A stretch of 52,961 nucleotides of DNA from Escherichia phage mEp013. The DNA is taken from sequence record PP180002. The stretch is one strand, 5' to 3'. Below, in pieces: positions 3,860 through 21,968 of the stretch. The number at the start of each line of letters is the position of its first letter. Position 1 is the stretch's first letter. Made by a program: the position numbers and the translations under genes. The notes below the pieces were generated by a model. That model saw only the letters and a list, made by a program, of their open reading frames with translations, made no database searches and had not been told where the DNA came from.

Positions 3860-5275
3860 TTAAAAAGATGCGTTATTCTGATTGTTTCGTTGGTTAAAAC
3901 GGCTTGTGCGATGATTCATTGACTGAATGCACGCGGCAGCGGCCCTGCCCTGGTCGCATGGTATGATGTTGCCGTTATCGTCAAACCGCTGGTAGACAGT
4001 CCCCGTTTTCCCGTGACGGTTTTTCGATACAATGATTTCCATATATTCGCGGGCAACAGACTGCTCATCGTAGTAGCCATCGCGGTACACCATGATGATC
4101 CTGTCAGCGTCCTGTTCAAGATTGCCGGAATCACGAAGATCCGAATTGTTAGGACGCTTGTTCGGTCGTTCCTCAACGCGGCGGGATAATTGCGCCAGCG
4201 CCAGCACCGGTACGCGCAATTCTTTCGCCATCATCTTCAACGACCATGACAATTGCCCTACGGCGAGATCATGACGTTCAGCCTTAGCCAGCTTCATCAA
4301 CCCGATGTAGTCAATCATTACCATACCCATGTTGGGATGTTCCTGTTTCATCCGTTCCGTGGTGGCGCGTATTTCCTCAACCGTTAACTGCGACGCGTCA
4401 ACGATCCACACATCAAGATTAGCAAGTGCGCTCATACCCTGGCCGACATGCGCCCACCCCTCATCATCAAGTTTTACCGGATTGCGCAGGCAGTCAGTTG
4501 ATAAATTTCCAGCGCCAGCTATGGCGCGCTCAGTCATCTGATCGAGCGACATTTCAAGCGTGAAGAACAAAACGCCAACCCGCTGATCCTTGCTGCCAGG
4601 GTAAGGGCGTTCAGCAGCAGCGCGGGCAATTGCCAGCGCCAACGCAGATTTACCAGACCCAGGGCGTCCGGCGAGAAGCACCAGATCAGTAGCGTTAATG
4701 CCGCCTAACATTTCGTCGAGTGGTTCTATCCCTGTTTTGATGTTGTCAGAATTGACACCGCACTCCATGCGCTTACTTAAAACTTCTGTGTACTCCTGGA
4801 CAGCATCGCGCAACAGAACAGGGATAATCTTGTCTTTAGTTACCTTTAATTTTGAATACCGGGAATCAAAATCTTTCATCGTCTCTTTGACGACCTCAAG
4901 CGTCCCCGTCTCCAGTTTGTAGCGCATATCGTCGATGAGTTCTAACATCTGCCGACGCTGGTGCTCTTCACGTAATAGCTGTGCGTATCCCTTCAGGTTG
5001 GCAGCAGAAGGACACGATCGCGCCGTTTGCATCAGCGGTACAAAATTTTCGTTGCCAATCTCATCACCAACCAGCAAGGCGTCGATAAGATTCCTGTTTC
5101 TGGCTTGCGCCCTGATAATTTCAAACGCACGTTTATACAGCGGAATCGTGAACACTTCAGGATCAAGAGTGGCGAGAACATCTTGCGCGTTAGGAGTTAG
5201 GCCGCCTAACAGCAGCCCGCCGATAACTGACGCTTCACGTTCCTGCCGTAGTGAGTTTATTTGCTCAGTTACCAT
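3860..5275 (-). CDS. replicative DNA helicase, DnaB family
   Basis: 471 aa; DnaB N-terminal signature SVIGGLLLG and Walker A GRPGSGKS. Confidence 0.9.
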   Translation of the reverse strand: MVTEQINSLRQEREASVIGGLLLGGLTPNAQDVLATLDPEVFTIPLYKRAFEIIRAQARNRNLIDALLVGDEIGNENFVPLMQTARSCPSAANLKGYAQLLREEHQRRQMLELIDDMRYKLETGTLEVVKETMKDFDSRYSKLKVTKDKIIPVLLRDAVQEYTEVLSKRMECGVNSDNIKTGIEPLDEMLGGINATDLVLLAGRPGSGKSALALAIARAAAERPYPGSKDQRVGVLFFTLEMSLDQMTERAIAGAGNLSTDCLRNPVKLDDEGWAHVGQGMSALANLDVWIVDASQLTVEEIRATTERMKQEHPNMGMVMIDYIGLMKLAKAERHDLAVGQLSWSLKMMAKELRVPVLALAQLSRRVEERPNKRPNNSDLRDSGNLEQDADRIIMVYRDGYYDEQSVAREYMEIIVSKNRHGKTGTVYQRFDDNGNIIPCDQGRAAAACIQSMNHRTSRFNQRNNQNNASF

Positions 5276-5293
5276 TATGTCATTACCTCATGT

Positions 5294-6412
5294 TTACAAA
5301 ATGGAAAATTCAGGGTAATAAACAAAGCGCCCGATCTCCCCATGATCCGGGCTGTAAATAATAACCGCTGCCAGACGCCGCGACCGCCAGCCGCCATTAG
5401 TTGAGTAAGCGTCTTTACCCGCTAACGTGCCGTGATACTCAACAACGCCTAACGATGATTCGATTAGCCGTTGATGGTGCCAGTGCCCGCAATGAGCGTA
5501 AACCGCCGCAGACTTGCCAAAATCCTCACGCCAGTCAGCTACGCAAGCAGACAATAAATTTTCCGGCTTTTTGATAGTGTGCCCGTGGTGGTAAGCAAGG
5601 AATGTTTTTCCGTACTGTGTGTGGTGGACGATGGCAGGGGACACATCAACCGTCACGCGCGGTTCATCTTCGTAAAAAGCAGCCAGCGCCGCACGTAGCC
5701 AGATCATTCCTGACTGGTCGTGATTGCCGGATAACACCTGGATTTCAACATCCTTATGATTTAATAACATCTTCCCTACCGCCCGCCGGACCGACCGGAT
5801 CGCTACATAAACAAGTTTTGCGTAGCGACTATCTTGATCAAGAATGTGCCCGCTTGTTGGAGTCACCGGGACCATGCCGTCAGAGTGAAGCAGATCCCCA
5901 CCGAGAAGCAATACAGCTTTTTCAGACATCGGCGCAGCGCCTACAGCGTAGTCAAAGAAGTCATTCAACACGCGCTCAGCAATCCCAGTGTCGTAGCTCT
6001 CGCCACATTCGGCTTTATGAGCAAGCGCCCCGATATGCAGATCAAATACCGGATAAAGGGCCAGGCTTTTTTGAAAATCAATTTCAGGCACTGGCACGGC
6101 ATCCGCGCGTGGTATTTCCTCCGTGAATGCGTCGCAGGCAGCTTCCATTAGCCTTTCCATTTCATCACGGTCACGGGCTGTTTTAATCCAGCGCATGATC
6201 ACATTGCCGTTCTTATCGACTAGTAACGACTCGCCATTGACGCCAAAACCAGGCGCGCGGCGTGTTGACAATAAACCGCGTTTAGCCAGCTTTGCGCCAA
6301 GACGCTCGACGTTGCGTTTTGACATGCCATATTTTTCGGCGATCTGTTTATACGTTAAACCATTGTTATATTCAGCGATCAATTGCTCATCGCTGATTTT
6401 TCTTTGTGACAT
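5294..6412 (-). CDS. HTH domain fused to calcineurin-like metallophosphoesterase
   Basis: N-terminal HTH (LTYKQIAEKYGMSKRNVERL); phosphoesterase motifs GDLLHSD, SGNHD, GHWHH; RBS GAGGA. Confidence 0.75.
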   Translation of the reverse strand: MSQRKISDEQLIAEYNNGLTYKQIAEKYGMSKRNVERLGAKLAKRGLLSTRRAPGFGVNGESLLVDKNGNVIMRWIKTARDRDEMERLMEAACDAFTEEIPRADAVPVPEIDFQKSLALYPVFDLHIGALAHKAECGESYDTGIAERVLNDFFDYAVGAAPMSEKAVLLLGGDLLHSDGMVPVTPTSGHILDQDSRYAKLVYVAIRSVRRAVGKMLLNHKDVEIQVLSGNHDQSGMIWLRAALAAFYEDEPRVTVDVSPAIVHHTQYGKTFLAYHHGHTIKKPENLLSACVADWREDFGKSAAVYAHCGHWHHQRLIESSLGVVEYHGTLAGKDAYSTNGGWRSRRLAAVIIYSPDHGEIGRFVYYPEFSIL

Positions 6413-6445
6413 AGTGTTATTTCCTCTGGTTTACATTTTGTATAT

Positions 6446-6982
6446 TCATTGACAGCAAACAATCTCTTTATATGCCTCTTCTACCATGTCGAATACTTCC
6501 GGCCTGTAATAGAAAAACTCATTGCTGCCATCAAATTTTACAGGAAAGTTAATTTTATAATTGCTGAAATATTTATGCATCGTGCTTTCTAGTTTATGTA
6601 TATTTTCGGTTGACCCTTCTAACGTTTTCACGATACACAAATCAGGGATTCTAACGCCTGCTTTATGTGCGCTTTTTAATATTTCATTTCTTCGCTCGTT
6701 ATCCTTAACGCTTACACCGATTTTCATTTGTGTAGGTAATTCCAGATCATCAACCATGATGTAAAGTTTGCCATACTCATAACTAAGGAAACCGTATTTC
6801 GCGCATTTTGGGCAGCCGCGCCCGCGCTTAAGGTCGCTAGGAGTAGCCGACCACTCATGATCACAAACCTTACAGCGGCATGATACTTTTGTTTTGCAAT
6901 TGATAATTTCTCCCAACACTTCAACATTGGGGTTAATTCTTGAGATAGCGGCAACTTGCTCCTTATGAGTTAACTTGCGCAT
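6446..6982 (-). CDS. zinc-ribbon plus GIY-YIG-like (T5orf172/MUG113-type) protein, single-repeat paralog of 39479..40789
   Basis: One LTHKEQVAAI..C.C..C.HEW..GCPKC repeat then GKLYIMVDD..KIGVS..ERRN..EFFYY domain shared with the 436-aa protein; ATG at 6982 has RBS AGGAG. Confidence 0.7.
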   Translation of the reverse strand: MRKLTHKEQVAAISRINPNVEVLGEIINCKTKVSCRCKVCDHEWSATPSDLKRGRGCPKCAKYGFLSYEYGKLYIMVDDLELPTQMKIGVSVKDNERRNEILKSAHKAGVRIPDLCIVKTLEGSTENIHKLESTMHKYFSNYKINFPVKFDGSNEFFYYRPEVFDMVEEAYKEIVCCQ

Positions 6983-7115
6983 TGTCATAGCTCCTAAAAA
7001 CGCATCAGACGCGCTACAACGCAAAAAATCCCACCGCGTAACCCACTTGTAAGGGTGCAGTGTCTTTTTTGCGCCAGAAGCGCAATCAGGTGGCTAATTT
7101 TTGATTTACAGACTG

Positions 7116-7217
7116 GTAGGTATGTTATGGATTGACTAGAAGGAACAAACCGCCGAACAAAGCGACGTTAACAGCAATTGCCGCAGCGATGGCAAAAGCC
7201 AGGGCGAAAACGTGTTT
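7116..7217 (-). CDS. small hydrophobic membrane peptide (33 aa)
   Basis: Hand-translated MDGKHVFALAFAIAAAIAVNVALFGGLFLLVNP; RBS GAGAGGA; below the 60-aa ORF-track cutoff. Confidence 0.4.
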
Positions 7218-7359
7218 ACCGTCCATTTTTAAATCCTCTCTGTAACGCTCTATAACGAGCTAATCGCAAAAAGGTATGCAAGTGTAGCACCCAATGCTTT
7301 TTAGCTCGCTGGTGAGCTTGTTTTGTGGGTAATTTTGGATTTTTGTGTATTGTGGTTGG

Positions 7360-8358
7360 TCAAAGAGCGCCAGCGCGTGTATCACGTAGCGTTTTTGGTT
7401 TAAGCAGGAAATCAAGTGTCGCAGTAAAGCCATTGCCGAAGTAAAAATCTGAAGCCGTGTTTTTGAACGTTTCGAAGTAGGCAACAAAGCCGTTAATGCT
7501 TTTATCTTTCAGGTAGTCAGTGAACGCATAGATCTTTCGTTCAAGATCCCGATCCAGTTCAGCAGGTGGCAACAGGCCATCAAACGTGATGTTAAACTCT
7601 TCCACCACATCGGCAGCGCTTACAGTAGCTGTAACTCTTCGCCATTGTTCAGCCTTTGCCCGGTATTCATCAAAGCGGCTTACCCTGGCGATCTTTATCG
7701 GTTCCGGTTTAAACGACCATGTTTCCGCTATCCAGTCGATAACCATGATCAAATCTTCTTCAGTATATGCGCCTCGTGTTTTTGTTTTCTTCAGTAGGTT
7801 AACAAAGTATTTTTTCTCCTTATGCTTGCTATTAAACTTGTTGTTATAGTGATCGAGTACGCGCGACGCTGCCAAATCAGCCGCCCGATCTTCTTCGCTG
7901 ATAGACTCGTCTTTTTCCAATACACGAAGTGTATTGTTTTTAATGTTCTCTTTACTGGTTATATATGACTGGTTAGGGTGACTCTGTGACACTACCCCCG
8001 GTGACTCTGTGTCACTACCCTGGTGACTCTGTGACACTACCCCCGGTGTCACAGTGACACTACCATGTAATGACGGGAGGACTATTACATAGAAATTACT
8101 AGTTTGCTCTTTTCCTCCGATCAAGTATCTTGGTTGTTTAATCAACAACCCTTTTTCACAAAGTGAGTCTACAGCCCTCATAGCTGTTCTTTTGCTGATC
8201 TCACACTCCTTTGCTATGTGATGGTAAGAAGGGTAACACTCGCCGTTATCATTAGCGTTATCAGCTAACTTCAACAGCACTAGTTTGTGCATTGGGTCGC
8301 CGACCTCAGTATGGAAGACTTCTACCATTAGCCGCATACTCATAAGCATTAACCTCAT
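7360..8358 (-). CDS. replication initiator, lambda O-like (phage replisome organiser N-terminal domain) with internal iterons
   Basis: N-terminal wHTH (ISKRTAMRAVDSLCEKGLLIK); in-frame repeated GVVSQSH peptide encoded by four 22-bp iterons; start not resolved (8358 vs downstream ATGs). Confidence 0.75.
   Translation of the reverse strand: MRLMLMSMRLMVEVFHTEVGDPMHKLVLLKLADNANDNGECYPSYHHIAKECEISKRTAMRAVDSLCEKGLLIKQPRYLIGGKEQTSNFYVIVLPSLHGSVTVTPGVVSQSHQGSDTESPGVVSQSHPNQSYITSKENIKNNTLRVLEKDESISEEDRAADLAASRVLDHYNNKFNSKHKEKKYFVNLLKKTKTRGAYTEEDLIMVIDWIAETWSFKPEPIKIARVSRFDEYRAKAEQWRRVTATVSAADVVEEFNITFDGLLPPAELDRDLERKIYAFTDYLKDKSINGFVAYFETFKNTASDFYFGNGFTATLDFLLKPKTLRDTRAGAL
7977..8066. repeat. four ~22-bp iterons GGTGACTCTGTGACACTACCC inside the O-like gene (candidate origin of replication)
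   Basis: Direct repeats at 7977, 8000, 8022, 8045, each with an internal inverted GTGAC/GTCAC; mirrors lambda ori inside O. Confidence 0.7.
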
Positions 8359-8364
8359 GACGAA

Positions 8365-8610
8365 CTAAAACATTAACTGATAAACACAGAAGAAACCTGG
8401 CAGCTGACTGATTAGGCCGCTTCTTTTCAGTTGATGCAGTGCAGAGATAGTGTCACGTAACGAAATTTCGCACATTTCAGCGATTTCTTCCGGCGTTACT
8501 TCGCTTTTGCCGTTGCATCCGGCCTTTGTTGCCAGTGCAATTAAGATGAGTTTTTGCGTCGGATCATTGTTATTCAGGCGAATATCAAAAGCCTTGCGAA
8601 CGTAATACAT
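8365..8610 (-). CDS. Cro-position winged-HTH DNA-binding protein (81 aa)
   Basis: First gene divergent from cI; RBS AGGAGAAAG; aligns with N-terminal domain of the O-like protein (DP.QKLILI..EISLRD); may be Cro- or CII-like. Confidence 0.55.
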   Translation of the reverse strand: MYYVRKAFDIRLNNNDPTQKLILIALATKAGCNGKSEVTPEEIAEMCEISLRDTISALHQLKRSGLISQLPGFFCVYQLMF

Positions 8611-8915
8611 GTTTCTTTCTCCTATGGTTAGGTGAACGCGCGGGCGGGTATCCAATTAGCATTAGATAGCAGTGACTGACCGCTGAACAGATCCCGCCGT
8701 TGCGTGATATTTGTTTTTCGCTTCGCAGCGACACCGGGTTTTTAAAGAGCTTTTAAGGTATGTGCCTTTTGTGCTTTCCCTTATCTCTTTCCTTGCATCA
8801 TTGCAAGTTCGGCTTTACCTTGTCTGTAAGTTTACAGAATGGCGTTAACAGATCAAGGATTGAAAATTACATTTTGTGACTTGCATCAAAATTTTTTAGG
8901 TTATAGGGTAGCGAC

Positions 8916-9563
8916 ATGAAAACAAAATGGTATGACCTGGCAAAACAACTCATGCGGGCGCAGGGCATGAGTCAAGATTCATTGGCAGATCTCATGGGGA
9001 TCACTAAAGGCGGCTTGTCACACTGGCTTAACGGTCGCCGCGAGCCAAATCTTGAAGACATTGCGCGGATTATGCGGGCGCTTGGGCGTCGGCAGTTCAC
9101 TGTCACACATGATGGAATGGTCATTGATGACTCTGTTTCTAACACGTTGCCGGGAGCGCCACCGCGTGATTTAGGCAGTTACCCGGTTGTTGACTGGAAG
9201 GATGTAGTAAACAATATGGAAGATGCAAGGCGATCAACATTACCACACGTTACGACTAGCGTTATTTGTTCAGATGATAGTTATTGGCTGGTAGCTAAAG
9301 GCGAATCAATGAACGCGCCGCAAGGATTGAGTATACCAGCGGGGACGATGATACTTGTCGATCCGCACGCGCCAGCTATTGACGGAAAACTGGTTATAGC
9401 CCAACTGGAGGAGGGGCAGATACCGACGTTTAAACAGTTGATTATTGATGGAGGCAGAAAACTTTTGCGTTCACTGAATCCGTTGTATCCGCCAATCCCT
9501 ATGAATCCAGAATCTAAAATCATAGGCGTGGTAGTGGATGCGAAGATCGTAAACCTGCCATAA
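8916..9563 (+). CDS. cI: CI-type repressor (HTH_XRE plus S24 LexA-like peptidase domain)
   Basis: N-terminal HTH (MSQDSLADLMGITKGGLSHWLNG); C-terminal autocleavage domain with GESM Ser and downstream Lys. Confidence 0.85.
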   Translation: MKTKWYDLAKQLMRAQGMSQDSLADLMGITKGGLSHWLNGRREPNLEDIARIMRALGRRQFTVTHDGMVIDDSVSNTLPGAPPRDLGSYPVVDWKDVVNNMEDARRSTLPHVTTSVICSDDSYWLVAKGESMNAPQGLSIPAGTMILVDPHAPAIDGKLVIAQLEEGQIPTFKQLIIDGGRKLLRSLNPLYPPIPMNPESKIIGVVVDAKIVNLP

Positions 9564-9568
9564 ACACT

Positions 9569-9593
9569 AGCCGCCTGATGGCGGCTTTTCTTT
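9569..9593 (+). terminator. rho-independent terminator after cI
   Basis: AGCCGCC-TGAT-GGCGGCT hairpin followed by TTTTCTTT. Confidence 0.7.
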
Positions 9594-9686
9594 GCCGGAA
9601 AAACACCAAAACGTAAACAGAAAACGTTATTTATTGTTTAAATATCAATAACATATAAAATATTTTAAAAAAGTATACAAAATGGA

Positions 9687-9715
9687 TTGACTCGGTGTTT
9701 TACGGGGCGTATATT
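9687..9715 (+). promoter_or_regulatory. PL-like sigma70 promoter (TTGACT-17-TATATT)
   Basis: Near-consensus hexamers with 17-nt spacer; flanked by 8-bp inverted repeat TTGACTCG/CGAGTCAA; TATACAAAATGG motif directly upstream. Confidence 0.65.
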
Positions 9716-9756
9716 GCGAGTCAAAGGAGGAAGCAAGGCAGGGAAAGAAGGTTACT

Positions 9757-9794
9757 TGCTCTTTAATAATCTGGTCAGCCGCTGGAAGTGCGGC
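9757..9794 (+). promoter_or_regulatory. nutL-like site: boxA (TGCTCTTTAATAA) plus boxB hairpin (GCCGC-TGGAAGT-GCGGC)
   Basis: boxA nearly identical to rrn/lambda boxA consensus; 5-bp stem 7-nt loop hairpin 8 nt downstream; sits between promoter and N-like gene. Confidence 0.55.
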
Positions 9795-9850
9795 AATTAA
9801 CGAAGATGATTTTTTATTAAGTATCATCAAGGATATAAGGAGATCAGATC

Positions 9851-10141
9851 ATGACAGTTACAATCATGTATGGCAAATGTGACAGTAAACTGAATGCCAG
9901 GGAACGCAGAAGAATAAAAAGAGAAAACGAAAGAAAATCATCACCTGCAATCAATAAAACGGACAATGTGGATAAAGCCATTCGCTTTGCAAACGAGGAA
10001 AGATGCAAACCCAATGGCATTAAAGAACGTCGCAAAGGATCAGTTAAATGGTATAAGGAAAACGAAAGCGGCAACTACTACCACGCAACGCAACCACGCC
10101 AGTTAGGGGAAAAACCCCTTGATAAAGTCCGTTACCATTAA
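9851..10141 (+). CDS. N-like antitermination protein (arginine-rich motif)
   Basis: 96 aa, basic; N-terminal ARM NARERRRIKRENERK; first gene after PL/nutL; strong RBS TAAGGAG. Confidence 0.5.
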   Translation: MTVTIMYGKCDSKLNARERRRIKRENERKSSPAINKTDNVDKAIRFANEERCKPNGIKERRKGSVKWYKENESGNYYHATQPRQLGEKPLDKVRYH

Positions 10142-10171
10142 TACAAAATGTAAATAATCGGAGGTGACATT

Positions 10172-10294
10172 ATGGTTATTCATGCGCTCCAATTCAAACT
10201 GGCGGTAGCGGAAATGCTTCATGATGCCGAAATGTGGAGCGCCGCGAATAAAGCCTTGTATGTAGTGTTAACAGCGAAGGAGATCAAAGAGTGA
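10172..10294 (+). CDS. hypothetical small protein (40 aa)
   Basis: Hand-translated; strong RBS GGAGGTG; stop overlaps erf GTG start. Confidence 0.45.
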   Translation: MVIHALQFKLAVAEMLHDAEMWSAANKALYVVLTAKEIKE

Positions 10295-10932
10295 AAACAG
10301 AGTTACACAAAAAACTGTGGACGATTCAGCAAACGCTGAATGCACCAAAAGGGCAATACAATAAATTCGGTGGATATTCATACAGATCTGCGGAGGATAT
10401 TTTAGAGGCAGTTAAGCCACTTCTACAGAATGTCACGTTAATGGTTAGCGATGAAATTGTTTTAATCGGTGATCGCTATTATGTGAAAGCAACGGCAACG
10501 CTAAGCGACGGCGAGGATTCAATTTCAGCCACTGCGTTCGCGCGTGAGGAAAAAGAGCAAAAAGGAATGACGGCAGGGCAGCTAACTGGCGCGACATCAA
10601 GTTACGCGCGGAAATATGCCCTGAACGGTCTGTTCTGTATAGACGATGCGAAAGATTTAGACACTGACGCTTACGCGAAGCAGACAGGCCAGCAGCCTCG
10701 CCAGCAGAAAAACACACCAAAACAACAACCACAGCAGCAGAAAGCGCAGCCAAATCCTGATGAAGTATTAGCACGTTTCTGTGATGCAGCAGCGAAAGCG
10801 CCTGATGCTAATAAGTTACGCGAGATCTTCGGCAAGTGCTGGAAGCTGTTACCTGAAAATTCAGAGCAACGAGTCAAAGCAAAAGATATTTACCAAATAA
10901 GGCTTGAGGAGTTAAATGGAAGTATTAACTAA
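10291..10932 (+). CDS. erf: Erf-family single-strand annealing protein
   Basis: LNAPK.QYN.FG.Y.YRS.EDILE.VKPLL N-terminal pattern as in P22 Erf (from memory); Q/P-rich C-terminus; RBS AAGGAG with GTG start. Confidence 0.75.
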   Translation: MKTELHKKLWTIQQTLNAPKGQYNKFGGYSYRSAEDILEAVKPLLQNVTLMVSDEIVLIGDRYYVKATATLSDGEDSISATAFAREEKEQKGMTAGQLTGATSSYARKYALNGLFCIDDAKDLDTDAYAKQTGQQPRQQKNTPKQQPQQQKAQPNPDEVLARFCDAAAKAPDANKLREIFGKCWKLLPENSEQRVKAKDIYQIRLEELNGSIN

Positions 10933-11524
10933 GACATGTAATAAATGCGGTAGGCGACTACCGCTTGATTGTTTTCCTAAACATAAAGGCTGCAAATATG
11001 GTGTTACTAGCACATGCGTTGAGTGCACTAAAATAAGCGTGAAAGCATTTAGGGAAAGGAATAAAGATAAAATAGCTGAACGAAATAGAAAATGGAGGGA
11101 AGAACATAAGGAAGAGATACGAGAGAAAGATAAGAAATACTACGAAGAACATAAGAAAGAATGTAATGATCGCGCGAAAAAATATAGAGAAAACAACAGG
11201 AAGAAAATTATAGAATATAAAAATGATTGGGTTAAAAGAAACGAAGAAAGATTGAAGGAGTACCGGAGAATATATCACGAAGATTATAAAGAAAGAAATA
11301 AGGCTGAACTAAAAGCAAGAACAAAACTAAGTAACGCCATTAGAGATGGCAAGATATTTAGGCCTGATAGGTGTGATCGTTGCGGAAATAAATGTACTCC
11401 TGATGGTCATCACTGGAATTATGCGTTTCCGCTTAACGTTATTTGGTTATGTAGATCTTGTCACAAAATAGTTCATGTTAAATTCGGGTGTATCCACGAA
11501 GATATTAACGGGGAGATCAATTAA
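10916..11524 (+). CDS. HNH endonuclease-like protein
   Basis: Cys-rich N-terminus; lysine-rich centre; C-terminal CDRCG..HHWNY..WLCRSCH HNH-type motif. Confidence 0.6.
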   Translation: MEVLTKTCNKCGRRLPLDCFPKHKGCKYGVTSTCVECTKISVKAFRERNKDKIAERNRKWREEHKEEIREKDKKYYEEHKKECNDRAKKYRENNRKKIIEYKNDWVKRNEERLKEYRRIYHEDYKERNKAELKARTKLSNAIRDGKIFRPDRCDRCGNKCTPDGHHWNYAFPLNVIWLCRSCHKIVHVKFGCIHEDINGEIN

Positions 11525-11988
11525 TGAGCTTAAATTCAATCACGCTGGGTGGTAACGTTGGTAACGATCTTGAAGTGCGCTACACGCAAAACGGGAAGGC
11601 GATTGGTAGTTTTCCGTTAGCTGTAACGAATGGCTACGGTGATAATAAGCGGACAATGTGGATCACTTGCCTGGTATTTGGTGAGCGTGCGGAAAAATTA
11701 GCTCCACATATCCGCAAGGGTGGAAAAATAGTGGTAAGCGGTCGCCTGGATGTTCGGCAATATGACCGGAACGACGGCACGAAGGGGACTGCGGTAGAAG
11801 TGGCGGTTAACGAATTTGAATTCATGAATGTTAACCAACAAGGCCAGCAGCAAGGACAGCAGCAGAAAGCGCCGCCGCAGCAGCATAATAATAACGGGAA
11901 TAATGTTCCTCCTGATTTCGATGACGACATCCCATTTGCTCCTATGGGGTTACAATATGGCAAAAGCAGGATCTACGCGCTATCTTGA
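11524..11988 (+). CDS. ssb: single-stranded DNA-binding protein
   Basis: OB-fold SSB pattern, Gln/Gly linker, acidic tail DDDIPF. Confidence 0.9.
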   Translation: MSLNSITLGGNVGNDLEVRYTQNGKAIGSFPLAVTNGYGDNKRTMWITCLVFGERAEKLAPHIRKGGKIVVSGRLDVRQYDRNDGTKGTAVEVAVNEFEFMNVNQQGQQQGQQQKAPPQQHNNNGNNVPPDFDDDIPFAPMGLQYGKSRIYALS

Positions 11989-12250
11989 TGCGCCGCCGAT
12001 TCCGCGAACAAAAGAGCAAGTATTAAAAGAAGCCCGTGATCAAATCGATCATGGGCTTTTTTTATGCGGCACGGCAGCGGAACGGATGGCGAAAAGATTT
12101 AGTGACCTGTACGCAAAACAAATATGGTTCGACAACTGGCAGGCAAGTTTTTATCCACTGCAAAGAAAACCGGATATGCACTGGCCTGAATATGTCGATC
12201 CACGTATGCGCAAATATCGCGGGCGTATGGGCCAGGTCATTAACGATTAA
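11957..12250 (+). CDS. hypothetical protein (97 aa)
   Basis: ATG at 11957 inside ORF 11828..12250; overlaps ssb 3' end. Confidence 0.5.
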   Translation: MAKAGSTRYLDAPPIPRTKEQVLKEARDQIDHGLFLCGTAAERMAKRFSDLYAKQIWFDNWQASFYPLQRKPDMHWPEYVDPRMRKYRGRMGQVIND

Positions 12251-12264
12251 TGAGGTATCAAATC

Positions 12265-12489
12265 ATGATCGAAGAAAAAGAAGTTGATAAAGAAATGCCT
12301 AACTCATCTGATGACTATGTCACTTTTAACGGCGGCCTGTATGAGTTCGAAACGTCTGCAGGCTGGCACGATAAATGGCCTATGCCAACGCGCAAGGAAT
12401 TAAGCGAACGTAAAACATTTGGCGAAGATGCCGAACGCCTGGCTAATAACAAATGGCTTGATAAGTTCATTGCGGAGGGTGGCAAATGA
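12265..12489 (+). CDS. hypothetical protein (74 aa)
   Basis: ATG at 12265 with GAGG RBS (alternative 12250). Confidence 0.5.
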   Translation: MIEEKEVDKEMPNSSDDYVTFNGGLYEFETSAGWHDKWPMPTRKELSERKTFGEDAERLANNKWLDKFIAEGGK

Positions 12490-12599
12490 ACCTTGCAAAA
12501 ATTGCCGCATTGCTTGCGGCTTTGTCTATCGCTGTGCTGTATCTCAGCGTATCGCTTTATATCACGGTAGCGATCATTAAACTCATTGCTAACATGTGA
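12486..12599 (+). CDS. small hydrophobic membrane peptide (37 aa)
   Basis: MNLAKIAALLAALSIAVLYLSVSLYITVAIIKLIANM; ATGA overlap with upstream stop. Confidence 0.45.
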   Translation: MNLAKIAALLAALSIAVLYLSVSLYITVAIIKLIANM

Positions 12600-12607
12600 G
12601 GTTAATC

Positions 12608-12730
12608 ATGAAAGTCGGTAAGGATATTGTGACGGTCGCGTTTTGCATTATTTGCTTCCTGTTTTCGGTTGTATTTTGTGGCGCACTTGCGGCGGTGATC
12701 AGCTTTATTGGTAAAGGGGTGATATTATGA
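12608..12730 (+). CDS. small hydrophobic membrane peptide (40 aa)
   Basis: MKVGKDIVTVAFCIICFLFSVVFCGALAAVISFIGKGVIL; ATGA overlap with next gene start. Confidence 0.45.
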   Translation: MKVGKDIVTVAFCIICFLFSVVFCGALAAVISFIGKGVIL

Positions 12731-12999
12731 TTCCGTGGAATGCAAAAGCTGGTGATCTGGTTGTTTTGCCTGCATATCGTAGTGATCCTGGTCTTGTGGT
12801 GCTGAATAAAGCATGTATAGAAATTGAGCGCCCGATCCTTGTCAAATACCTGGACGGAACAATTATAGAGCCTATTTTCTTCGACAAGATTGAGCTGAAA
12901 GCCCGTAATGTTCGCGTTAAGCCGTTCCGGGCTTATGTTGAAGACCACTGGCGGAAATTGTTCGCCGGACTGAATGGGATGTACGGCGTATGGCTATAA
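12727..12999 (+). CDS. hypothetical protein (90 aa)
   Basis: ORF in tightly packed early operon. Confidence 0.5.
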   Translation: MIPWNAKAGDLVVLPAYRSDPGLVVLNKACIEIERPILVKYLDGTIIEPIFFDKIELKARNVRVKPFRAYVEDHWRKLFAGLNGMYGVWL

Positions 13000-13181
13000 A
13001 ATTGGTGAAAGTTAAAGATTTAAAAGGCGGCGAAAAACTCCGCGCATGGTTCGGATATGAATTTATTGCTACTGCCTTTCATTTCGGGAAAGGGGGCCAG
13101 GTAACAATTTTTGATGAAGATTACGACGAAGTTGGGCAATGGCATCTTGAGCAATATATCGAGGTGTTAAATGAAAATTAA
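12990..13181 (+). CDS. hypothetical protein (63 aa)
   Basis: ORF in tightly packed early operon. Confidence 0.45.
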   Translation: MAIKLVKVKDLKGGEKLRAWFGYEFIATAFHFGKGGQVTIFDEDYDEVGQWHLEQYIEVLNEN

Positions 13182-13503
13182 ATTCCATAAAGCATATGAT
13201 AGCCAGACAAACAAGCTATCACTATTTATTGAGTTCGAACGCCGGATCGTGGTTGTTCCTTATTCTCGGCGCTTTAATGATGCAGCAGGGCGGAGACAGT
13301 TCGCGTTAGATATGTTGTTACGCGGTTGCGGCCTTATGCGCCCGCTATCTGATTTAAAACGGATGATGCCTGGATCGTTCGGTCAGATTGATGAAATTGA
13401 AGTAAGCCAGGAAGAGCTAAAACGGGCGCGTGATTTGTTCCTTTCAAGCGAAGGAAACCCGTTTAATCCAGAAACTGAAATGAAATGGCATCACCCACTA
13501 TAA
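13171..13503 (+). CDS. hypothetical protein (110 aa)
   Basis: ORF in tightly packed early operon. Confidence 0.5.
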   Translation: MKIKFHKAYDSQTNKLSLFIEFERRIVVVPYSRRFNDAAGRRQFALDMLLRGCGLMRPLSDLKRMMPGSFGQIDEIEVSQEELKRARDLFLSSEGNPFNPETEMKWHHPL

Positions 13504-13516
13504 AAGGATAAATATC

Positions 13517-14137
13517 ATGAACGACATCAAAACAGCTTATTCACTCGGCAGCGAAGGCATGTTAATCACTCGCTATACTGAAGATGCAAGTTTTCATGAA
13601 GTGGAAATTAAAGATTATCACGAAGTATTGAAAGATATGGAGGCTGGCAAGTATGACGCTGATTTGAATCTGGCGTTACAGATTGTTGATATTGTGATGG
13701 ACGCGTCGATCCGTGATTATGTGTCTTTAGACGCTGAAGAAAAAACGGCTGTAGCTCGTTATGTCTTCTGCCTTACTTTCGTGAAACGCATGGAAGAGGA
13801 ATTTGGTCGCGTGCCAGTTCCGGAAGAAATTGACCCGCTGGCGTTCGGAAGCGCTGTTATTTTCCCGTTAGATGAAAATCATACTGGTAGCGTTGCGCTG
13901 CATTCTATGCGCGGCGTAATGAAAAGCGTCTTTGAGGCTAAGGCGCTACAGAAGTGCGTTGATGAAGGGCACAACGAGGAAGACGTAAAGGAGATCATGC
14001 CGTTGTTTTATGGCGAAATGGTTGGTAATAACATGCGTGCAAATGATTTAGGTGTGCAGGCGGCCATATCCGTTCTTAATGAAGTACGGAAAATGGCACA
14101 GCCAATGCCTGAACAGGGAAAACGTGTACTGCATTAA
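13517..14137 (+). CDS. hypothetical protein (206 aa)
   Basis: Long ORF, acidic; no recognisable motif. Confidence 0.6.
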   Translation: MNDIKTAYSLGSEGMLITRYTEDASFHEVEIKDYHEVLKDMEAGKYDADLNLALQIVDIVMDASIRDYVSLDAEEKTAVARYVFCLTFVKRMEEEFGRVPVPEEIDPLAFGSAVIFPLDENHTGSVALHSMRGVMKSVFEAKALQKCVDEGHNEEDVKEIMPLFYGEMVGNNMRANDLGVQAAISVLNEVRKMAQPMPEQGKRVLH

Positions 14138-14235
14138 CATCGTGATTGCTATCACATGAATATACATTTTGTGTTGTGATCGCATATCCGTTTTGTAAAC
14201 TGAAATTAAAGGTTTACAGCGCGGAGGAAAGCAAG

Positions 14236-14454
14236 ATGGAACGTGAATACATGCTTTATTGCGTTGAGGGTGGCGTAGGTAGCGATGCCTACGTCGCAGG
14301 GAAAAGCTATCCAGCCGATGAAGTGCTTTCTAATATGCACTTCCGGGAAAATGAAAACCAGGTGTCTGTGTGGAAGCGATGCGTTGATGGTATTGAAGTC
14401 GTTAGCCTTGAAAGATATTTGGGTAAATTTGACTACGCATTGATCGAGGCTTAA
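14236..14454 (+). CDS. hypothetical protein (72 aa)
   Basis: ATG at 14236 with RBS GGAGGA; promoter-like TTGTGA-16-TAAACT at 14174-14201 upstream. Confidence 0.45.
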   Translation: MEREYMLYCVEGGVGSDAYVAGKSYPADEVLSNMHFRENENQVSVWKRCVDGIEVVSLERYLGKFDYALIEA

Positions 14455-14456
14455 CT

Positions 14457-14549
14457 ATGGACGAATCATTGCTATTCATGTGCATTTGCTGGGGTTTTAT
14501 TGCCTTATGCCTGTTTATCAGGTGGTTTATTGAATACCATATGAGGTGA
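14457..14549 (+). CDS. small hydrophobic membrane peptide (30 aa)
   Basis: MDESLLFMCICWGFIALCLFIRWFIEYHMR; follows upstream stop by 2 nt. Confidence 0.4.
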   Translation: MDESLLFMCICWGFIALCLFIRWFIEYHMR

Positions 14550-14553
14550 TTTT

Positions 14554-14745
14554 ATGAAAAAGGTTGGCGAATACATGATACCGGATAACGCTAAATTAGC
14601 CGGGATAGGTCAATTTGGTTGTTATTACTATAACTGTGTCGGTGATATTTATCAGGTCAGTATTGTTGGTGGTGTACAGCATTTTCGTCTTATGCACTTT
14701 GAATTAAGCGCACTTAAAAAGGCGGTGTTAATGTATGAAGTTTAA
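14554..14745 (+). CDS. hypothetical protein (63 aa)
   Basis: RBS GAGGTG. Confidence 0.5.
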   Translation: MKKVGEYMIPDNAKLAGIGQFGCYYYNCVGDIYQVSIVGGVQHFRLMHFELSALKKAVLMYEV

Positions 14746-14938
14746 ACAGTATAAAGAATGGAAGATTCCAGAAGAAGCAACAAAGGCAGCGCCCGGAAGT
14801 TTTTCGGGCGTTTACTTTTATATGGAAGGTAAATGGTATTTCGGCAGCAGGCCGGATCACTATTATCAAGAAGTATGCAAATCTCACACATGGGACATTA
14901 AGGAACGCGTGCAAGGTGGTGTAATAGACGAGGTTTAA
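14735..14938 (+). CDS. hypothetical protein (67 aa)
   Basis: ORF overlapping neighbours. Confidence 0.45.
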   Translation: MKFKQYKEWKIPEEATKAAPGSFSGVYFYMEGKWYFGSRPDHYYQEVCKSHTWDIKERVQGGVIDEV

Positions 14939-14939
14939 A

Positions 14940-15176
14940 ATGGTTAAGAGCTTTTTTAACTGGTTGTGTGCGTGGCTTTTGGCTACGATTTTTGTTTTCC
15001 TGGCGGCCCTGACTGTTATCGTTGTTATCATGCTGGGGGCTATGTTTATTACGTGGTCGCTGCCTGAATTTAACGACATTGGGAATATTCTTTTTGCAGC
15101 CCGCGCTTTATTGGCTGTTAGCGCATTCATTGGTTTTTGCTGGACTGTGGCGCCTGATTGGGGTGATGAATGGTGA
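14940..15176 (+). CDS. hypothetical membrane protein (78 aa, two predicted TM helices)
   Basis: Two hydrophobic stretches. Confidence 0.5.
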   Translation: MVKSFFNWLCAWLLATIFVFLAALTVIVVIMLGAMFITWSLPEFNDIGNILFAARALLAVSAFIGFCWTVAPDWGDEW

Positions 15177-15180
15177 TCAT

Positions 15181-15414
15181 ATGGCTTTGTTCAATATGTC
15201 AGAACTGCAATTTAATGCCGTAAAAGCAGCCGCCCGCGCTGCACTTTCTGCTTGCAAAGCGGAGGTAGAGAAAAACGGCTACAGCGATAAAGCTACGCGG
15301 CTGATATTAGAAAAGCATTATCGCAAGGTTGCCCCGCTAATCAGCATTGAGCGTTTTGTCTGGTTGGTTGGGTATCTCAATAACCGATGGGGGACTGACC
15401 AGGATTATTTTTAG
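15181..15414 (+). CDS. hypothetical protein (77 aa)
   Basis: ATG at 15181 inside ORF 15022..15414. Confidence 0.45.
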   Translation: MALFNMSELQFNAVKAAARAALSACKAEVEKNGYSDKATRLILEKHYRKVAPLISIERFVWLVGYLNNRWGTDQDYF

Positions 15415-15426
15415 TGGGGGATAGCA

Positions 15427-17701: not shown

Positions 17702-17860
17702 AATTTACAAAATGGCGTCATTGCGTGATGTGGATCACATAATGGCGCTTTTCACCTTGTTCTGACGTATCCATTTTGTATACTTCAATCAAGCAAAATG
17801 CTCTTTAAAAATCCGGCAGCGCTGAAATGCGTAGAAATCACCTGAAAAGGAGAGAGCATT

Positions 17861-18037: not shown

Positions 18038-18051
18038 TCGGGGTGGTTTTT

Positions 18052-18657
18052 ATGCAGAACCCTAAAAAACCCATAAGACGCCGTTGCAAGTGCTGCGGCG
18101 TTTTTTTTGAGCCTAAATATCATAATCAAACGTGGTGCAGTGATGAATGTCTGGAGGAACTGAAGTTTGACCAGTTATGCCGCGACCGAGAAAAGGCTAT
18201 GAAGGCTATGGAGCGGAAGAAACGCCGTGATAGCCAGCGTGAAGAACGCAACCGGAAGCGTAAACAGTTAAATCCGCGTAGTTATTGGATCAAACAAGTT
18301 CAAAATGTATTTAACGCCTATATTCGAGAACGTGACGCGCGCTTGCCGTGTATATCTTGCGGGACTTACTACGGTGAGCAATGCGGGTGGGATGCAGGCC
18401 ATTACAGGACGGTAGCCGCCGCCGGACACCTTCGCTTCAACGAGGATAATTGCCATAAGCAATGTAGGCACTGCAACCAGACACTAGACGGCAATATCGG
18501 AGGGTATCGCCCGGCACTGATTCGAAAAATTGGCCTCGCCAGGGTGGTAGCTCTGGAGAACAACAACGAAACTCACAAATGGACGATTGCAGAATGTAAG
18601 GAGCTAATAAACATCTATCAGGCTAAATTGGACGCCTTAAGGAGAAAGGCAGCATGA
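18052..18657 (+). CDS. ninG: NinG/Rap-family recombination protein
   Basis: Strong resemblance to lambda NinG as recalled (RRRCK, PRSYWIKQ, LPCISCGT, WDAGHYRT, HKQC..CN); ATG at 18052 with RBS. Confidence 0.8.
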   Translation: MQNPKKPIRRRCKCCGVFFEPKYHNQTWCSDECLEELKFDQLCRDREKAMKAMERKKRRDSQREERNRKRKQLNPRSYWIKQVQNVFNAYIRERDARLPCISCGTYYGEQCGWDAGHYRTVAAAGHLRFNEDNCHKQCRHCNQTLDGNIGGYRPALIRKIGLARVVALENNNETHKWTIAECKELINIYQAKLDALRRKAA

Positions 18658-19061: not shown

Positions 19062-19240
19062 AAAACGAAATTAAAGATCTGCAAATAGATATTCAGCGCG
19101 ATGAGCATGATTTAGCTACAGTCAGACAAATCCAGGCTTTCCACATGAGAGAACTGCTTGCGCTGAAAGAGCTTGAAAGAAAGTTGGTCCAATCAATATC
19201 TGATCGTAAACGTCTGGTTGCTCGTTACGGGGGCAAATAA
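19058..19240 (+). CDS. hypothetical protein (60 aa, coiled-coil)
   Basis: ORF coupled between rusA and Q. Confidence 0.45.
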   Translation: MKNEIKDLQIDIQRDEHDLATVRQIQAFHMRELLALKELERKLVQSISDRKRLVARYGGK

Positions 19241-19962
19241 TGAATCTGGAATCAATTCTTAAATTCCACTTCCCAAAATCACCGCGTTTGTCAGATGAAA
19301 GCCGTGGCACGTCCCCGGATGCTCTTAATACTACTGATGCACTAACTGCCGCAGGTATGGCGCAATCGCGCGTAGAGCTTGGTTACAGCGCTTTTTTAGG
19401 GAAGATGGAACTATCACAAGCCGAAAAGCACAGGGCCGTAGTTTTGCTTACAGAGCGTTTAATGGCTATGGCAAAAGATTATGAATACGTTATGGAACTG
19501 GACGAGGCCAAACGCAATGATCTCATTATTCTTATTGCCGTTTTCGCGTTTCGGGATTATTGCCAGAGCGCCGCGACGGAAAAAACTTGTATGGAGTGCG
19601 GCGGATATAAATTTACGTTTGACGAATACGGGGAAAAACACCTTTGCAAAAAATGTAAGGGGCATGGGAAAGTTCTTAATCATTGCAAACAATGCAAGGG
19701 CCGTGGCGAAGTACCGGATAAAGCAGCCAGTGAAGCGGCGGAAATGCCAGTGTTCAAAACGTGCCAGCACTGCGGCGGGCGAGGGTACTCGCGTTTCCCT
19801 GTAGATCTTGTCCGGCAGGCTGTTAATCAGCTTGTTTTTCCGGTAAGCCGATCAACATGGTGGAAAAAATACCGGGTTTTCTATGAAGACGCCATTGCTG
19901 AATTGTTCAAAGAAGAGGCGCGGGCTGATAACGAAATTAAGCAGGTGACGCGGGGTGAATGA
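19240..19962 (+). CDS. Q: late antiterminator Q (lambda-type)
   Basis: Matches lambda Q as recalled (LESILKFHFPKSP, AAGMAQS, CQSAAT, zinc-finger CxxC..CxxC, GYSRFP). Confidence 0.8.
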   Translation: MNLESILKFHFPKSPRLSDESRGTSPDALNTTDALTAAGMAQSRVELGYSAFLGKMELSQAEKHRAVVLLTERLMAMAKDYEYVMELDEAKRNDLIILIAVFAFRDYCQSAATEKTCMECGGYKFTFDEYGEKHLCKKCKGHGKVLNHCKQCKGRGEVPDKAASEAAEMPVFKTCQHCGGRGYSRFPVDLVRQAVNQLVFPVSRSTWWKKYRVFYEDAIAELFKEEARADNEIKQVTRGE

Positions 19963-20623: not shown

Positions 20624-20627
20624 TAAT

Positions 20628-21214: not shown

Positions 21215-21224
21215 CGGGGTGAAT

Positions 21225-21679: not shown

Positions 21680-21736
21680 CGGTGAGTTGTTGGCTGTATT
21701 GTTGATTTCTGATGCTGTTACTTATAAGGGTTAAAG

Positions 21737-21964: not shown

Positions 21965-21968
21965 CATC

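What the first reader, a model, noticed from the sequence alone, without database searches (positions are those of the whole stretch)
9687..10141. Complete N-type antitermination unit: PL-like promoter, boxA/boxB and an ARM-containing small protein
A near-consensus promoter (TTGACT-17-TATATT) is followed by a boxA almost identical to the rrn boxA (TGCTCTTTAATAA), a boxB-like hairpin 8 nt later, and a 96-aa basic protein with an arginine-rich motif NARERRRIKRENERK. A possible boxA-like sequence (GCTCTTTAAAAAC on the minus strand near 8739-8751) may serve the replication operon. The promoter is also bracketed by an 8-bp inverted repeat TTGACTCG/CGAGTCAA (9687-9694 and 9717-9724) that may be an operator.
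Basis: partly seen in the sequence, partly recalled or inferred. Interest (0 to 1): 0.5.

Follow-up and report, generated by a model that had tools for sequence, protein, structure and literature searches.

The report
Known N-like antitermination unit (Gp17/nutR1)
The region is a genuine phage early-gene switch: a promoter, an RNA loading site and a small arginine-rich protein that lets RNA polymerase read through terminators. The same system has already been shown experimentally in the near-identical coliphage mEp021, so it is correct but ordinary.

Summary
The window is a coliphage of the published mEpimmI group, 92-95.5% DNA identity to mEp554, mEp044, mEp021, mEp010 and mEp515. The 96-aa protein (9851-10141) is 98% identical to mEp021 Gp17, with an identical arginine-rich motif. 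Gp17 is reported as the experimentally shown N-like early antiterminator acting on nutL, nutR1 and nutR2. The finding's boxA/boxB is nutR1. The minus-strand boxA near 8738-8750 is nutL. GCTCTTTAA occurs exactly three times in the window, each followed by a short hairpin. The hairpin stem shows compensatory changes at 4 of 5 pairs across relatives. A covariance model of these sites finds only these three in the window. It also picks out exactly the two annotated nut sites in phage P22, so the system is closer to P22 gene 24 than to lambda N. The proposed operator (8-bp inverted repeat) is real but only its outer 4 bp are conserved; that part is unsupported. In passing I noticed an over-represented motif CCATTTTGTAWAC, three paralogous promoter modules with CRP-like sites, and a 215-nt leader insertion in mEp021 that this window lacks. 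Verdict: correct, already known.

The parts
9687..9715 (+). Early promoter of the N-like gene (TTGACT-17-TATATT). The predicted start is near 9722 and has not been mapped.
   Evidence: The -35 TTGAC and the -10 CGTATA are invariant in 7 diverse relatives (A1) and recognisable in the distant relative L099.
9757..9769 (+). nutR1 boxA, TGCTCTTTAATAA. It differs by one base from GCTCTTTAACAA, which most relatives carry.
   Evidence: Identification of TGCTCTTTAACAA as the rrn boxA consensus is from my own knowledge; I did not read the papers found.
9778..9794 (+). nutR1 boxB hairpin GCCGC-UGGAAGU-GCGGC.
   Evidence: Fold. Variants with compensatory stem changes. Covariance-model hit 9758-9797 at 48.7 bits.
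9851..10141 (+). Gp17-like N-type antiterminator, 96 aa, with the ARM at residues 15-29.
   Evidence: 98% identity to mEp021 Gp17. PHROG 271 at E=1.2e-10. The N-terminus aligns to P22 gp24. RBS AAGGAG at 9837-9842.
8738..8750 (-). nutL boxA, GCTCTTTAAAAAC.
   Evidence: Nearly invariant in 47 loci.
8718..8731 (-). nutL boxB, UCGCU-GCGA-AGCGA (a GNRA tetraloop; one relative has GUGA).
   Evidence: Covariance-model hit 8714-8750 at 53.7 bits.
8829..8856 (-). Candidate leftward early promoter feeding nutL (TTGATC-16-TAAACT). This is an inference.
   Evidence: Both hexamer regions are conserved in 31 sequence variants.
17799..17811 (+). nutR2 boxA, TGCTCTTTAAAAA.
17819..17832 (+). nutR2 boxB, GCGC-UGAAAU-GCGU. 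Relatives have CCGC..GCGG and ACGC..GCGU.
   Evidence: Covariance-model hit 17800-17836 at 52.1 bits.
17757..17784 (+). Candidate promoter 15 nt upstream of the nutR2 boxA (TTGTTC-16-TATACT), paralogous to the leftward promoter. This is an inference.
8916..9563 (+). cI-type repressor (HTH_3 plus Peptidase_S24), followed by its terminator at 9569-9586. It sits between the two early promoters, as in lambda.
14788..14812 (+). Strong intrinsic terminator in the rightward operon downstream of nutR1; a likely antitermination target.
   Evidence: -19.0 kcal/mol, z=-3.95. The syntenic position in mEp021 is annotated TERM_3.
18082..18108 (+). Intrinsic terminator (hairpin plus U8) about 250 nt downstream of nutR2, inside the 5' end of ninG; a likely target.
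   Evidence: -16.8 kcal/mol, z=-3.46. mEp554 carries a predicted terminator, T7, at the same place.
19240..19962 (+). Q-type late antiterminator (Pfam Antiterm), the downstream beneficiary of early antitermination.
   Evidence: E=4.6e-30.

Best explanation
This is the nutR1/gp17 module of an mEpimmI-group temperate coliphage. When repression is lifted, host RNA polymerase starts at TTGACT-17-TATATT (9687-9715). About 35 nt into the transcript it makes boxA (9757-9769), and 8 nt later the boxB hairpin (9778-9794). The first gene encodes a 96-aa basic protein. Its N-terminal arginine-rich motif binds the boxB loop. Together with host NusA, NusB, NusE and NusG assembled on boxA, it converts the polymerase into a terminator-resistant complex. 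The same protein acts at two further sites. One is nutL (8718-8750, minus strand), at the head of the leftward replication operon. The other is nutR2 (17799-17832), ahead of ninF, ninG, rusA and the Q-like gene. Early transcription therefore reaches the replication genes and Q. Shown here: all sequence elements are present, there are exactly three sites, they are conserved, the boxB stem covaries, and the protein is homologous to Gp17 and to the N/gp24 family. Taken from the literature: Gp17 antiterminates at these three sites, and the phage group needs Nus factors. Inferred: the transcription start sites, ARM-to-loop contacts, which terminators are overcome, and GNRA-type folding of the loops.
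For: The window is 92-95.5% identical to mEpimmI phages. The protein is 98% identical to mEp021 Gp17, with an identical ARM. R17, R20 and R24 are invariant and R19, R21 and K23 nearly so across the family, in line with the conserved arginines reported in PMC11893012. That paper states that Gp17 is responsible for early antitermination in mEp021, acting on nutR1, nutR2 and nutL, in a Nus-dependent phage group. PHROG 271 'N-like' matches at E=1.2e-10 over residues 2-95; P22 gp24 (7e-40) and lambda N (4e-23) hit the same family. BLASTP to the P22 gp24 N-terminus gives 11/20 identities, E=0.007, and hhalign gives E=3.5e-4. GCTCTTTAA occurs exactly 3 times against 0.64 expected. boxB covariation: 4 of 5 pairs change on both sides, score 0.585 against 0.187 in shuffles (0/500), and slid controls collapse (the same on 18 sites). 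A covariance model of the sites finds only the three in the window; the next hit scores 11 bits. Out of sample, it finds exactly the two annotated nut sites of P22 (20.4 and 16.1 bits) and nothing else at E<=1. A distant relative (N-like P0052, 44% identical to the window protein over the 59 residues that BLASTP aligns, in the C-terminal part) has the same layout with boxA GCTCTTTAACAA and boxB CGCU-GAAA-AGCG and UUGCU-GAAA-AGCAA. Strong terminators lie downstream. Gene order is cI, terminator, promoter, nut, N-like, kil-like, erf, ssb.
Against: No experiment was done on this exact sequence. The primary paper (Arch Virol 168:92) could not be read, so the experimental claim rests on its summary in PMC11893012. 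Pfam N_peptide is below its threshold (16.4 against 27.9 bits). There is no pairwise similarity to lambda N, no match to any PDB sequence, and no Rfam family. The hairpins are not thermodynamically exceptional. mEp021, the phage tested, carries a 215-nt leader insertion and a boxA variant (GCTCATTAACAA) that the window lacks, so nutR1 efficiency could differ.
Confidence: 0.93

Rival explanations
1. Factor-independent, rrn-type antitermination. The near-consensus boxA alone recruits NusB/NusE (with NusA, NusG and SuhB) and suppresses mainly Rho-dependent termination. On this reading the hairpin and the 96-aa protein are not needed.
For: The boxA is one base from GCTCTTTAACAA, and most relatives carry exactly that sequence. 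By my own knowledge it equals the E. coli rrn boxA. The boxA-plus-spacer sequence is more conserved than boxB.
Against: Each boxA is followed by a covarying hairpin at a fixed distance. An N-family protein is encoded immediately downstream. Gp17 is reported as responsible for early antitermination in mEp021.
Confidence: 0.04
2. The 96-aa protein acts as a Nun-like exclusion factor. Its ARM binds the boxB of other phages and provokes termination, rather than serving as the phage's own antiterminator.
For: An ARM-bearing small protein in the N position is also what HK022 Nun looks like (my own knowledge). The boxB loops tolerated are diverse.
Against: The phage carries three cognate nut sites of its own, placed ahead of essential operons with terminators. 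The literature reports antitermination. Lambda plated normally on cells expressing the group's repressor, but no exclusion by Gp17 is reported.
Confidence: 0.02
3. The inverted repeat TTGACTCG/CGAGTCAA bracketing the promoter is the repressor's operator.
For: An exact 8-bp inverted repeat spans -35 to +1. The candidate leftward promoter is bracketed in the same way by CTTG(A)TCTG...CAGACAAG. In L099 the arms are TTGC...GCAA.
Against: Among phages with near-identical repressors, only TTGA/TCAA is conserved, and the inner positions vary without compensation. TTGAC is explained by the -35 and TCAA lies at the predicted start. The arms are about 30 bp apart, which is atypical for one HTH dimer. 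The best-conserved block near the promoter is instead AAAAAGTATACAAAATG.
Confidence: 0.15

Closest known systems
Gp17 / nutL-nutR1-nutR2 of coliphage mEp021 (Valencia-Toxqui et al. 2023, Arch Virol 168:92; group survey in PMC11893012)
   Same: The protein is 98% identical with an identical ARM. The three nut sites are at the same genomic positions, with identical boxB at nutR1, nutR2 and nutL. The repressor, erf, ssb, ninG and Q context is the same.
   Different: The window has the short leader: it lacks the ~215-nt conserved insertion between promoter and nutR1 that mEp021 carries. Its nutR1 boxA is GCTCTTTAATAA rather than GCTCATTAACAA.
Gene 24 protein and nutL/nutR of Salmonella phage P22
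   Same: The N-termini match: MTVITYGK...NAKTRRHERRRK against MTVTIMYGK...NARERRRIKRE. Both have the boxA core GCTCTTTAA and a boxB of the form CGCUGA.AA.GCG. A model built only from mEpimmI-type sites recovers both P22 nut sites and nothing else in 41.7 kb. Both proteins fall in the same PHROG.
   Different: P22 has a 5-nt loop (GACAA). Here the loops read as 4-nt GNRA (GAAA, GCGA, GGAA) closed by U-A or U.U. There are three sites instead of two. nutL precedes the first gene, whereas P22 nutR lies downstream of cro. The C-terminal halves show no pairwise similarity.
Lambda N / nutL-nutR
   Same: The logic and the position next to the repressor gene are the same. Both need Nus factors (literature). 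Both hit PHROG 271. There is a possible shared C-terminal WY motif (RKGSVKWYKE against RKNQRTWYSK), but only at hhalign E=0.02, which is weak.
   Different: There is no BLASTP similarity. Lambda boxA is CGCTCTTA(A) and its boxB is GCCCUGAAGAAGGGC. The lambda nutL stretch searched (L097) is not found by the model at E<=1. In lambda, Q lies in the cro/O/P operon; here Q is downstream of the N-like gene and replication is in the opposite operon.
E. coli rrn operon boxA antitermination
   Same: The boxA sequence is practically identical (my own knowledge for the rrn sequence; window sequence).
   Different: The rrn system uses no phage ARM protein and no boxB recognition.

Membership tests
N-type (lambda N / P22 gp24) processive antiterminators | Sequence-profile membership in the N family | tested here: met
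   PHROG 271 'anti-termination protein N-like' matches at E=1.2e-10, residues 2-95. P22 gp24 and lambda N hit the same profile. Pfam N_peptide PF25694 gives only 16.4 bits against a 27.9 cut-off, so the case rests on PHROGs and on the P22 N-terminal alignment.
N-type (lambda N / P22 gp24) processive antiterminators | Small basic protein with an N-terminal arginine-rich motif | tested here: met
   96 aa, pI 10.0, 10 K+R in the first 30 residues. NARERRRIKR is conserved; R17, R20 and R24 are invariant.
N-type (lambda N / P22 gp24) processive antiterminators | Cis-acting nut sites (boxA, short spacer, boxB hairpin) in the early transcripts | tested here: met
   There are three sites. The boxB stem covaries. 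The model cross-detects the P22 nut sites.
N-type (lambda N / P22 gp24) processive antiterminators | boxB loop adopts a GNRA-like fold recognised by the ARM | not testable with these tools
   The loops can be written as GAAA, GCGA/GUGA or GGAA closed by U-A or U.U. This is sequence inference only; no structure or binding data were obtained.
N-type (lambda N / P22 gp24) processive antiterminators | Protein-dependent read-through of terminators | not testable with these tools
   Reported for the 98%-identical mEp021 Gp17 (PMC11893012). The primary paper is not held.
N-type (lambda N / P22 gp24) processive antiterminators | Dependence on host Nus factors | not testable with these tools
   The mEp collection was defined as Nus-dependent (PMC11893012). 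The near-consensus boxA is consistent with this.
N-type (lambda N / P22 gp24) processive antiterminators | First gene of an early operon adjacent to the immunity repressor | tested here: met
   The order is cI-type repressor 8916-9563, terminator, promoter, nut, then the gene at 9851.
mEpimmI phage group (Gp17 system) | Gp17 orthologue plus nutL, nutR1 and nutR2 at syntenic positions, with a Rep021-type repressor | tested here: met
   The published positions are given.

The most novel reading that the evidence does not exclude
The early circuit may differ from the lambda and P22 textbook layout in two untested ways. First, nutR2 may not be a relay site on the transcript from the gp17 promoter. 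It may be loaded from its own promoter 15 nt upstream (17757-17784). That promoter belongs to a family of three paralogous modules (leftward promoter, 14.1 kb, 17.7 kb). Each module carries a CRP-like TGTGA-N6-TCACA site centred near -61 and the motif CCATTYTG fused to the -10 hexamer. On this reading, replication and Q expression would be cAMP-CRP-gated and N-dependent from three separate starts. Second, one ARM reads three different true GNRA tetraloops rather than pentaloops.
Probability: 0.3. Interest if true: 0.45.

Novelty: already known. Interest (0 to 1): 0.15.

Why it matters
As a finding it matters little. It re-identifies from raw sequence a system already characterised in mEp021 and surveyed across 48 genomes. 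It does confirm that a tool-free reader can recognise a full N/nut module. What this analysis adds is modest:

- formal covariation support for the boxB stem;
- the result that the site architecture and the protein N-terminus are P22-like rather than lambda-like;
- the absence of a fourth site;
- the natural short-leader variant;
- leads on promoter and operator architecture that the group survey I could read (PMC11893012) does not address.

Tried and rejected
**Database searches that found nothing useful**
- Rfam at permissive E-values over 7000-12000, and over the mEp021 leader, gave only chance-level hits.
- A PDB sequence search returned no N peptide, only noise.
- Pfam N_peptide was sub-threshold.
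- A HMMER profile search of 1.84 billion representatives returned only the protein's own family plus one distant relative, P0052. It does not bridge to P22 or lambda N.
- BLASTP to lambda N gave nothing.

**Operator hunting**
- The palindrome CTTGCA-N4-TGCAAG (8792-8807) is conserved but unique in the window.
- Repeat searches between the two promoter regions gave nothing convincing beyond the ACAAAATGG motif.

**The 37-aa ORF**
- The ORF 9687-9800, annotated as hypothetical in mEp554, starts at the TTG of the -35 hexamer. It therefore lies upstream of the predicted start, so I treat it as spurious.
- In mEp021 a different 37-aa ORF, annotated as mEp021_16, lies in the same leader, inside the insertion. 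In relatives it takes a frameshift and non-conservative changes that preserve RNA pairing.

**Other**
- The 13-bp motif sites show no orientation bias relative to transcription, which argues against a stoperator-like model.
- Two calls were wasted on input errors (64, 93) and two on bad coordinates (72, 73).

Full report
**Observation**

- Promoter: TTGACT 9687-9692, a 17-nt spacer, TATATT 9710-9715. It is also one of the four 10-of-12 matches at the top of a scan of 5000-24000.
- Inverted repeat: TTGACTCG 9687-9694 and CGAGTCAA 9717-9724.
- boxA: TGCTCTTTAATAA 9757-9769, followed by an 8-nt spacer.
- Hairpin: GCCGCUGGAAGUGCGGC 9778-9794, a 5-bp stem with a 7-nt loop at -10.1 kcal/mol.
- Gene: AAGGAG 9837-9842 and a 96-aa ORF at 9851-10141. 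The protein has pI 10.0.
- The minus-strand GCTCTTTAAAAAC lies at 8750-8738.

**What the window is**

The region 8300-10400 is 92-95.5% identical to Escherichia phages mEp554, mEp044, mEp021, mEp010 and mEp515. These are the published mEpimmI group of Nus-dependent, non-lambdoid temperate coliphages (PMC11893012).

The 96-aa protein is 98% identical to mEp021 Gp17 (mEp021_17), and the arginine-rich segment is identical.

PMC11893012 makes these statements:
- Gp17 is the N-lambda-like protein responsible for early antitermination in mEp021.
- It acts on three sites: nutL upstream of the repressor gene, nutR1 upstream of gp17, and nutR2 downstream of a cytosine-methyltransferase gene.
- R17, R19, R20 and R24 are fully conserved.
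- The sites are conserved in 48 genomes.

The primary experimental paper (Arch Virol 168:92) is not held, so the experimental claim rests on this summary.

**The three nut sites in the window**

GCTCTTTAA occurs exactly three times, against 0.64 expected: 9758 (+), 8750 (-) and 17800 (+). Each copy is followed 8-12 nt later by a hairpin that shares the core C-UG..A..-G.

| Site | boxB hairpin | Coordinates |
|---|---|---|
| nutR1 | GCCGC-UGGAAGU-GCGGC | 9778-9794 (+) |
| nutL | UCGCU-GCGA-AGCGA | 8718-8731 (-) |
| nutR2 | GCGC-UGAAAU-GCGU | 17819-17832 (+) |

The finding is therefore nutR1. nutR2 was missed.

**Conservation and covariation**

I collected relatives in two ways: by exact protein look-up and by a 17-mer scan of viral contigs.
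- Among 49 loci, nutR1 has 11 sequence variants.
- The boxB stems are GCCGC/GCGGC, GCUAC/GUAGC, GCAC/GUGC, UGCAC/GUGCA and CGC/GCG.
- nutR2 varies as GCGC/GCGU, CCGC/GCGG and ACGC/GCGU.
- nutL is nearly invariant, with one loop change from GCGA to GUGA.

On an 11-hairpin alignment, 4 of 5 pairs change on both sides. The covariation score is 0.585 against 0.187 in shuffles (0/500), and slid registers collapse. The result is the same with 18 full sites that include a distant relative. The outermost pair is not conserved.

A covariance model of boxA, spacer and boxB finds the three sites at 49-54 bits. These were in the training set, so they match by construction. The next hit scores only 11 bits, so there is no fourth site.

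Out of sample, the model finds exactly the two annotated nut sites in the 41.7-kb P22 genome, at 20.4 and 16.1 bits, with nothing else at E<=1. It does not find the nutL in the lambda stretch searched (L097).

**The protein**
- PHROG 271 'anti-termination protein N-like' matches residues 2-95 at E=1.2e-10. P22 gp24 (7e-40) and lambda N (4e-23) hit the same profile.
- The N-terminus aligns to P22 gp24: MTVTIMYGKCDSKLNARERR against MTV-ITYGKSTFAGNAKTRR, 11/20 identities, E=0.007. hhalign gives E=3.5e-4.
- There is no pairwise similarity to lambda N. Pfam N_peptide is sub-threshold. Nothing matches in the PDB.
- The family is narrow. There are 51 clusters in 5.8 billion proteins; every source name is E. 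coli apart from one metagenome-assembled Caudoviricetes sequence, and the unnamed rest come from run or metagenome assemblies.
- In 1.84 billion representatives, only one further relative appears, P0052.
- P0052's locus (L099) has the same order: cI, N-like, kil-like, erf, ssb. Its rightward site has boxA GCTCTTTAACAA and boxB CGCU-GAAA-AGCG. Its leftward site (UUGCU-GAAA-AGCAA) is placed after a cro-like gene, as in lambda.
- Prophage copies of the window's module are present in 35 of 5426 complete E. coli genomes.

**Mechanism**

Transcription from 9687-9715 produces nutR1. The ARM of the 96-aa protein binds boxB, and Nus factors assemble on the rrn-like boxA. The modified polymerase then reads through terminators:
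- 14788-14812, at -19 kcal/mol;
- 18082-18108, a hairpin plus U8;
- weaker ones such as 12504-12520.

It continues through erf, ssb and ninG to the Q-type gene at 19240-19962. nutL does the same for the leftward replication operon.

Shown here: anatomy, conservation, covariation and homology. From the literature: antitermination and Nus dependence. Inferred: start sites, contacts and targets.

I also infer that the loops are true GNRA tetraloops (GAAA, GCGA/GUGA, GGAA) closed by U-A or U.U. This would contrast with the pentaloops of lambda (GAAGA) and P22 (GACAA).

**The operator claim**

The 8-bp inverted repeat is real. But in relatives with near-identical repressors only TTGA/TCAA persists. 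TTGAC is the -35, and TCAA sits at the predicted start. The candidate leftward promoter shows a similar bracket, again with only the outer 4 bp conserved. I rate the operator reading at about 0.15.

**Things noticed on the way**

1. *An over-represented motif.* CCATTTTGT occurs 11 times against 0.86 expected. It extends to an asymmetric CCATTTTGTAWAC. As the 15-mer CCATTYTGTAWACTT it gives 8 hits with up to 2 mismatches, against 0.52 expected.
   - Copies abut the -35 of the gp17 promoter (9671-9685, minus strand).
   - Copies overlap the -10 of the candidate leftward promoter (8828-8842).
   - One sits 15 nt upstream of the nutR2 boxA (17771-17785).
   - The early-region copies are positionally conserved in five relatives, and the core is kept in L099.

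2. *Three paralogous promoter modules.* The sites are 8890 to 8828 on the minus strand, 14141-14201, and 17724-17784. Each shares a CRP-like site (T/C)GTGA-N6-TCACA about 61 bp upstream of the predicted start, then a TTGNNN -35, then CCRTTYTG fused to a TAWACT -10. The half-sites are conserved and the N6 varies in relatives. This suggests nutR2 may have its own promoter.

3. *A leader insertion absent from the window.* 35 of the 49 family loci with a recognisable nutR1, among them mEp021, and also phages mEp010, mEp515 and MagusPhagus, carry a ~215-nt insertion between the promoter and nutR1. The window lacks it.
   - It is almost invariant even where Gp17 is only 72% identical.
   - It is closed by a ~19-bp long-range stem.
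   - One hairpin in it has three compensatory pairs.
   - It begins with a degenerate boxA-like GCACTTTAAAAATCAGGC.
   - It has no Rfam match and occurs only in this phage group.

4. *No cro-type gene.* The window has no cro-type HTH_3 gene. The first leftward gene (8368-8610) resembles the N-terminal winged helix of replication initiators. L099, by contrast, has a cro-like gene.

5. *Possible identity of the window.* PP180002 (mEp013), the only sequenced group member absent from the collection, may be this window. This is not verified.

**Verdict**

It is already known and of low interest as a discovery.

Noticed in passing
window 5296-5304, 8828-8842, 8922-8930, 9671-9685, 17701-17715, 17771-17785, 29639-29647, 33531-33539, 37143-37151, 37168-37176, 43275-43283, 50236-50244: An asymmetric motif CCATTTTGT(AWAC) is strongly over-represented: 11 exact 9-mers against 0.86 expected, and 8 hits of the 15-mer with up to 2 mismatches against 0.52 expected. 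Copies sit at or next to the early promoters and in several intergenic regions. There is no orientation bias. Early-region copies are positionally conserved in relatives, and the core is kept in the distant relative L099. It could be a regulator or operator site, or part of a promoter module.
   Followed up: partly
window 8828-8890 (-), 14141-14201 (+), 17724-17784 (+); also 43355-43370: Three paralogous promoter modules share a CRP-like site (T/C)GTGA-N6-TCACA centred about 61 bp upstream of the predicted start, a TTGNNN -35, and CCRTTYTG fused to a TAWACT -10. One module lies 15 nt upstream of the nutR2 boxA, so nutR2 may have its own promoter. The half-sites are conserved and the N6 varies in relatives. 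A fourth CRP-like site at 43.36 kb precedes TTGATA-17-TATATT on the minus strand.
   Followed up: partly
L008 (mEp021) about 11995-12215; absent from the window between 9749 and 9750: A ~215-nt insertion lies in the gp17 leader between the promoter and nutR1 in 35 of the 49 family loci with a recognisable nutR1. It is almost invariant, closed by a ~19-bp long-range stem, and contains a hairpin with 3 compensatory pairs. It starts with a degenerate boxA-like sequence. It has no Rfam match and is found only in this phage group. The 37-aa ORF annotated in it (mEp021_16) is frameshifted in one relative. The window is the minority short-leader form.
   Followed up: partly
window 8365-8916: There is no cro-type gene between the repressor and the replication genes. 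The first leftward gene (81 aa, 8368-8610) looks like the N-terminal winged helix of a replication initiator (HTH_36; PHROG 4617). nutL lies upstream of it. The distant relative L099 instead has a cro-like HTH_3 gene with the nut site after it, as in lambda.
   Followed up: partly
window 9569-9686 (-): The conserved block AAAAAGTATACAAAATG read on the minus strand gives a -10-like TATACT pointing towards the bidirectional terminator 9569-9586. A small leftward RNA of about 90 nt, antisense to the end of the repressor gene, is conceivable. There is no good -35, and only chance-level Rfam hits.
   Followed up: no
window 8792-8807: A perfect palindrome CTTGCA-TCAT-TGCAAG lies between the candidate leftward promoter and nutL. 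The arms are conserved and the spacer varies in relatives. It is unique in the window. It could be a protein-binding site.
   Followed up: partly
window 10172-10294: A 40-aa ORF directly after the N-like gene has a weak Lambda_Kil match (Pfam E=2e-4, below threshold; PHROG 2055 E=0.0013). This is the same position as kil in lambda and P22.
   Followed up: no
whole window: Of the six sequenced mEpimmI phages, only mEp013 (PP180002) is missing from the phage collection. The window may be that genome. This is not verified.
   Followed up: partly
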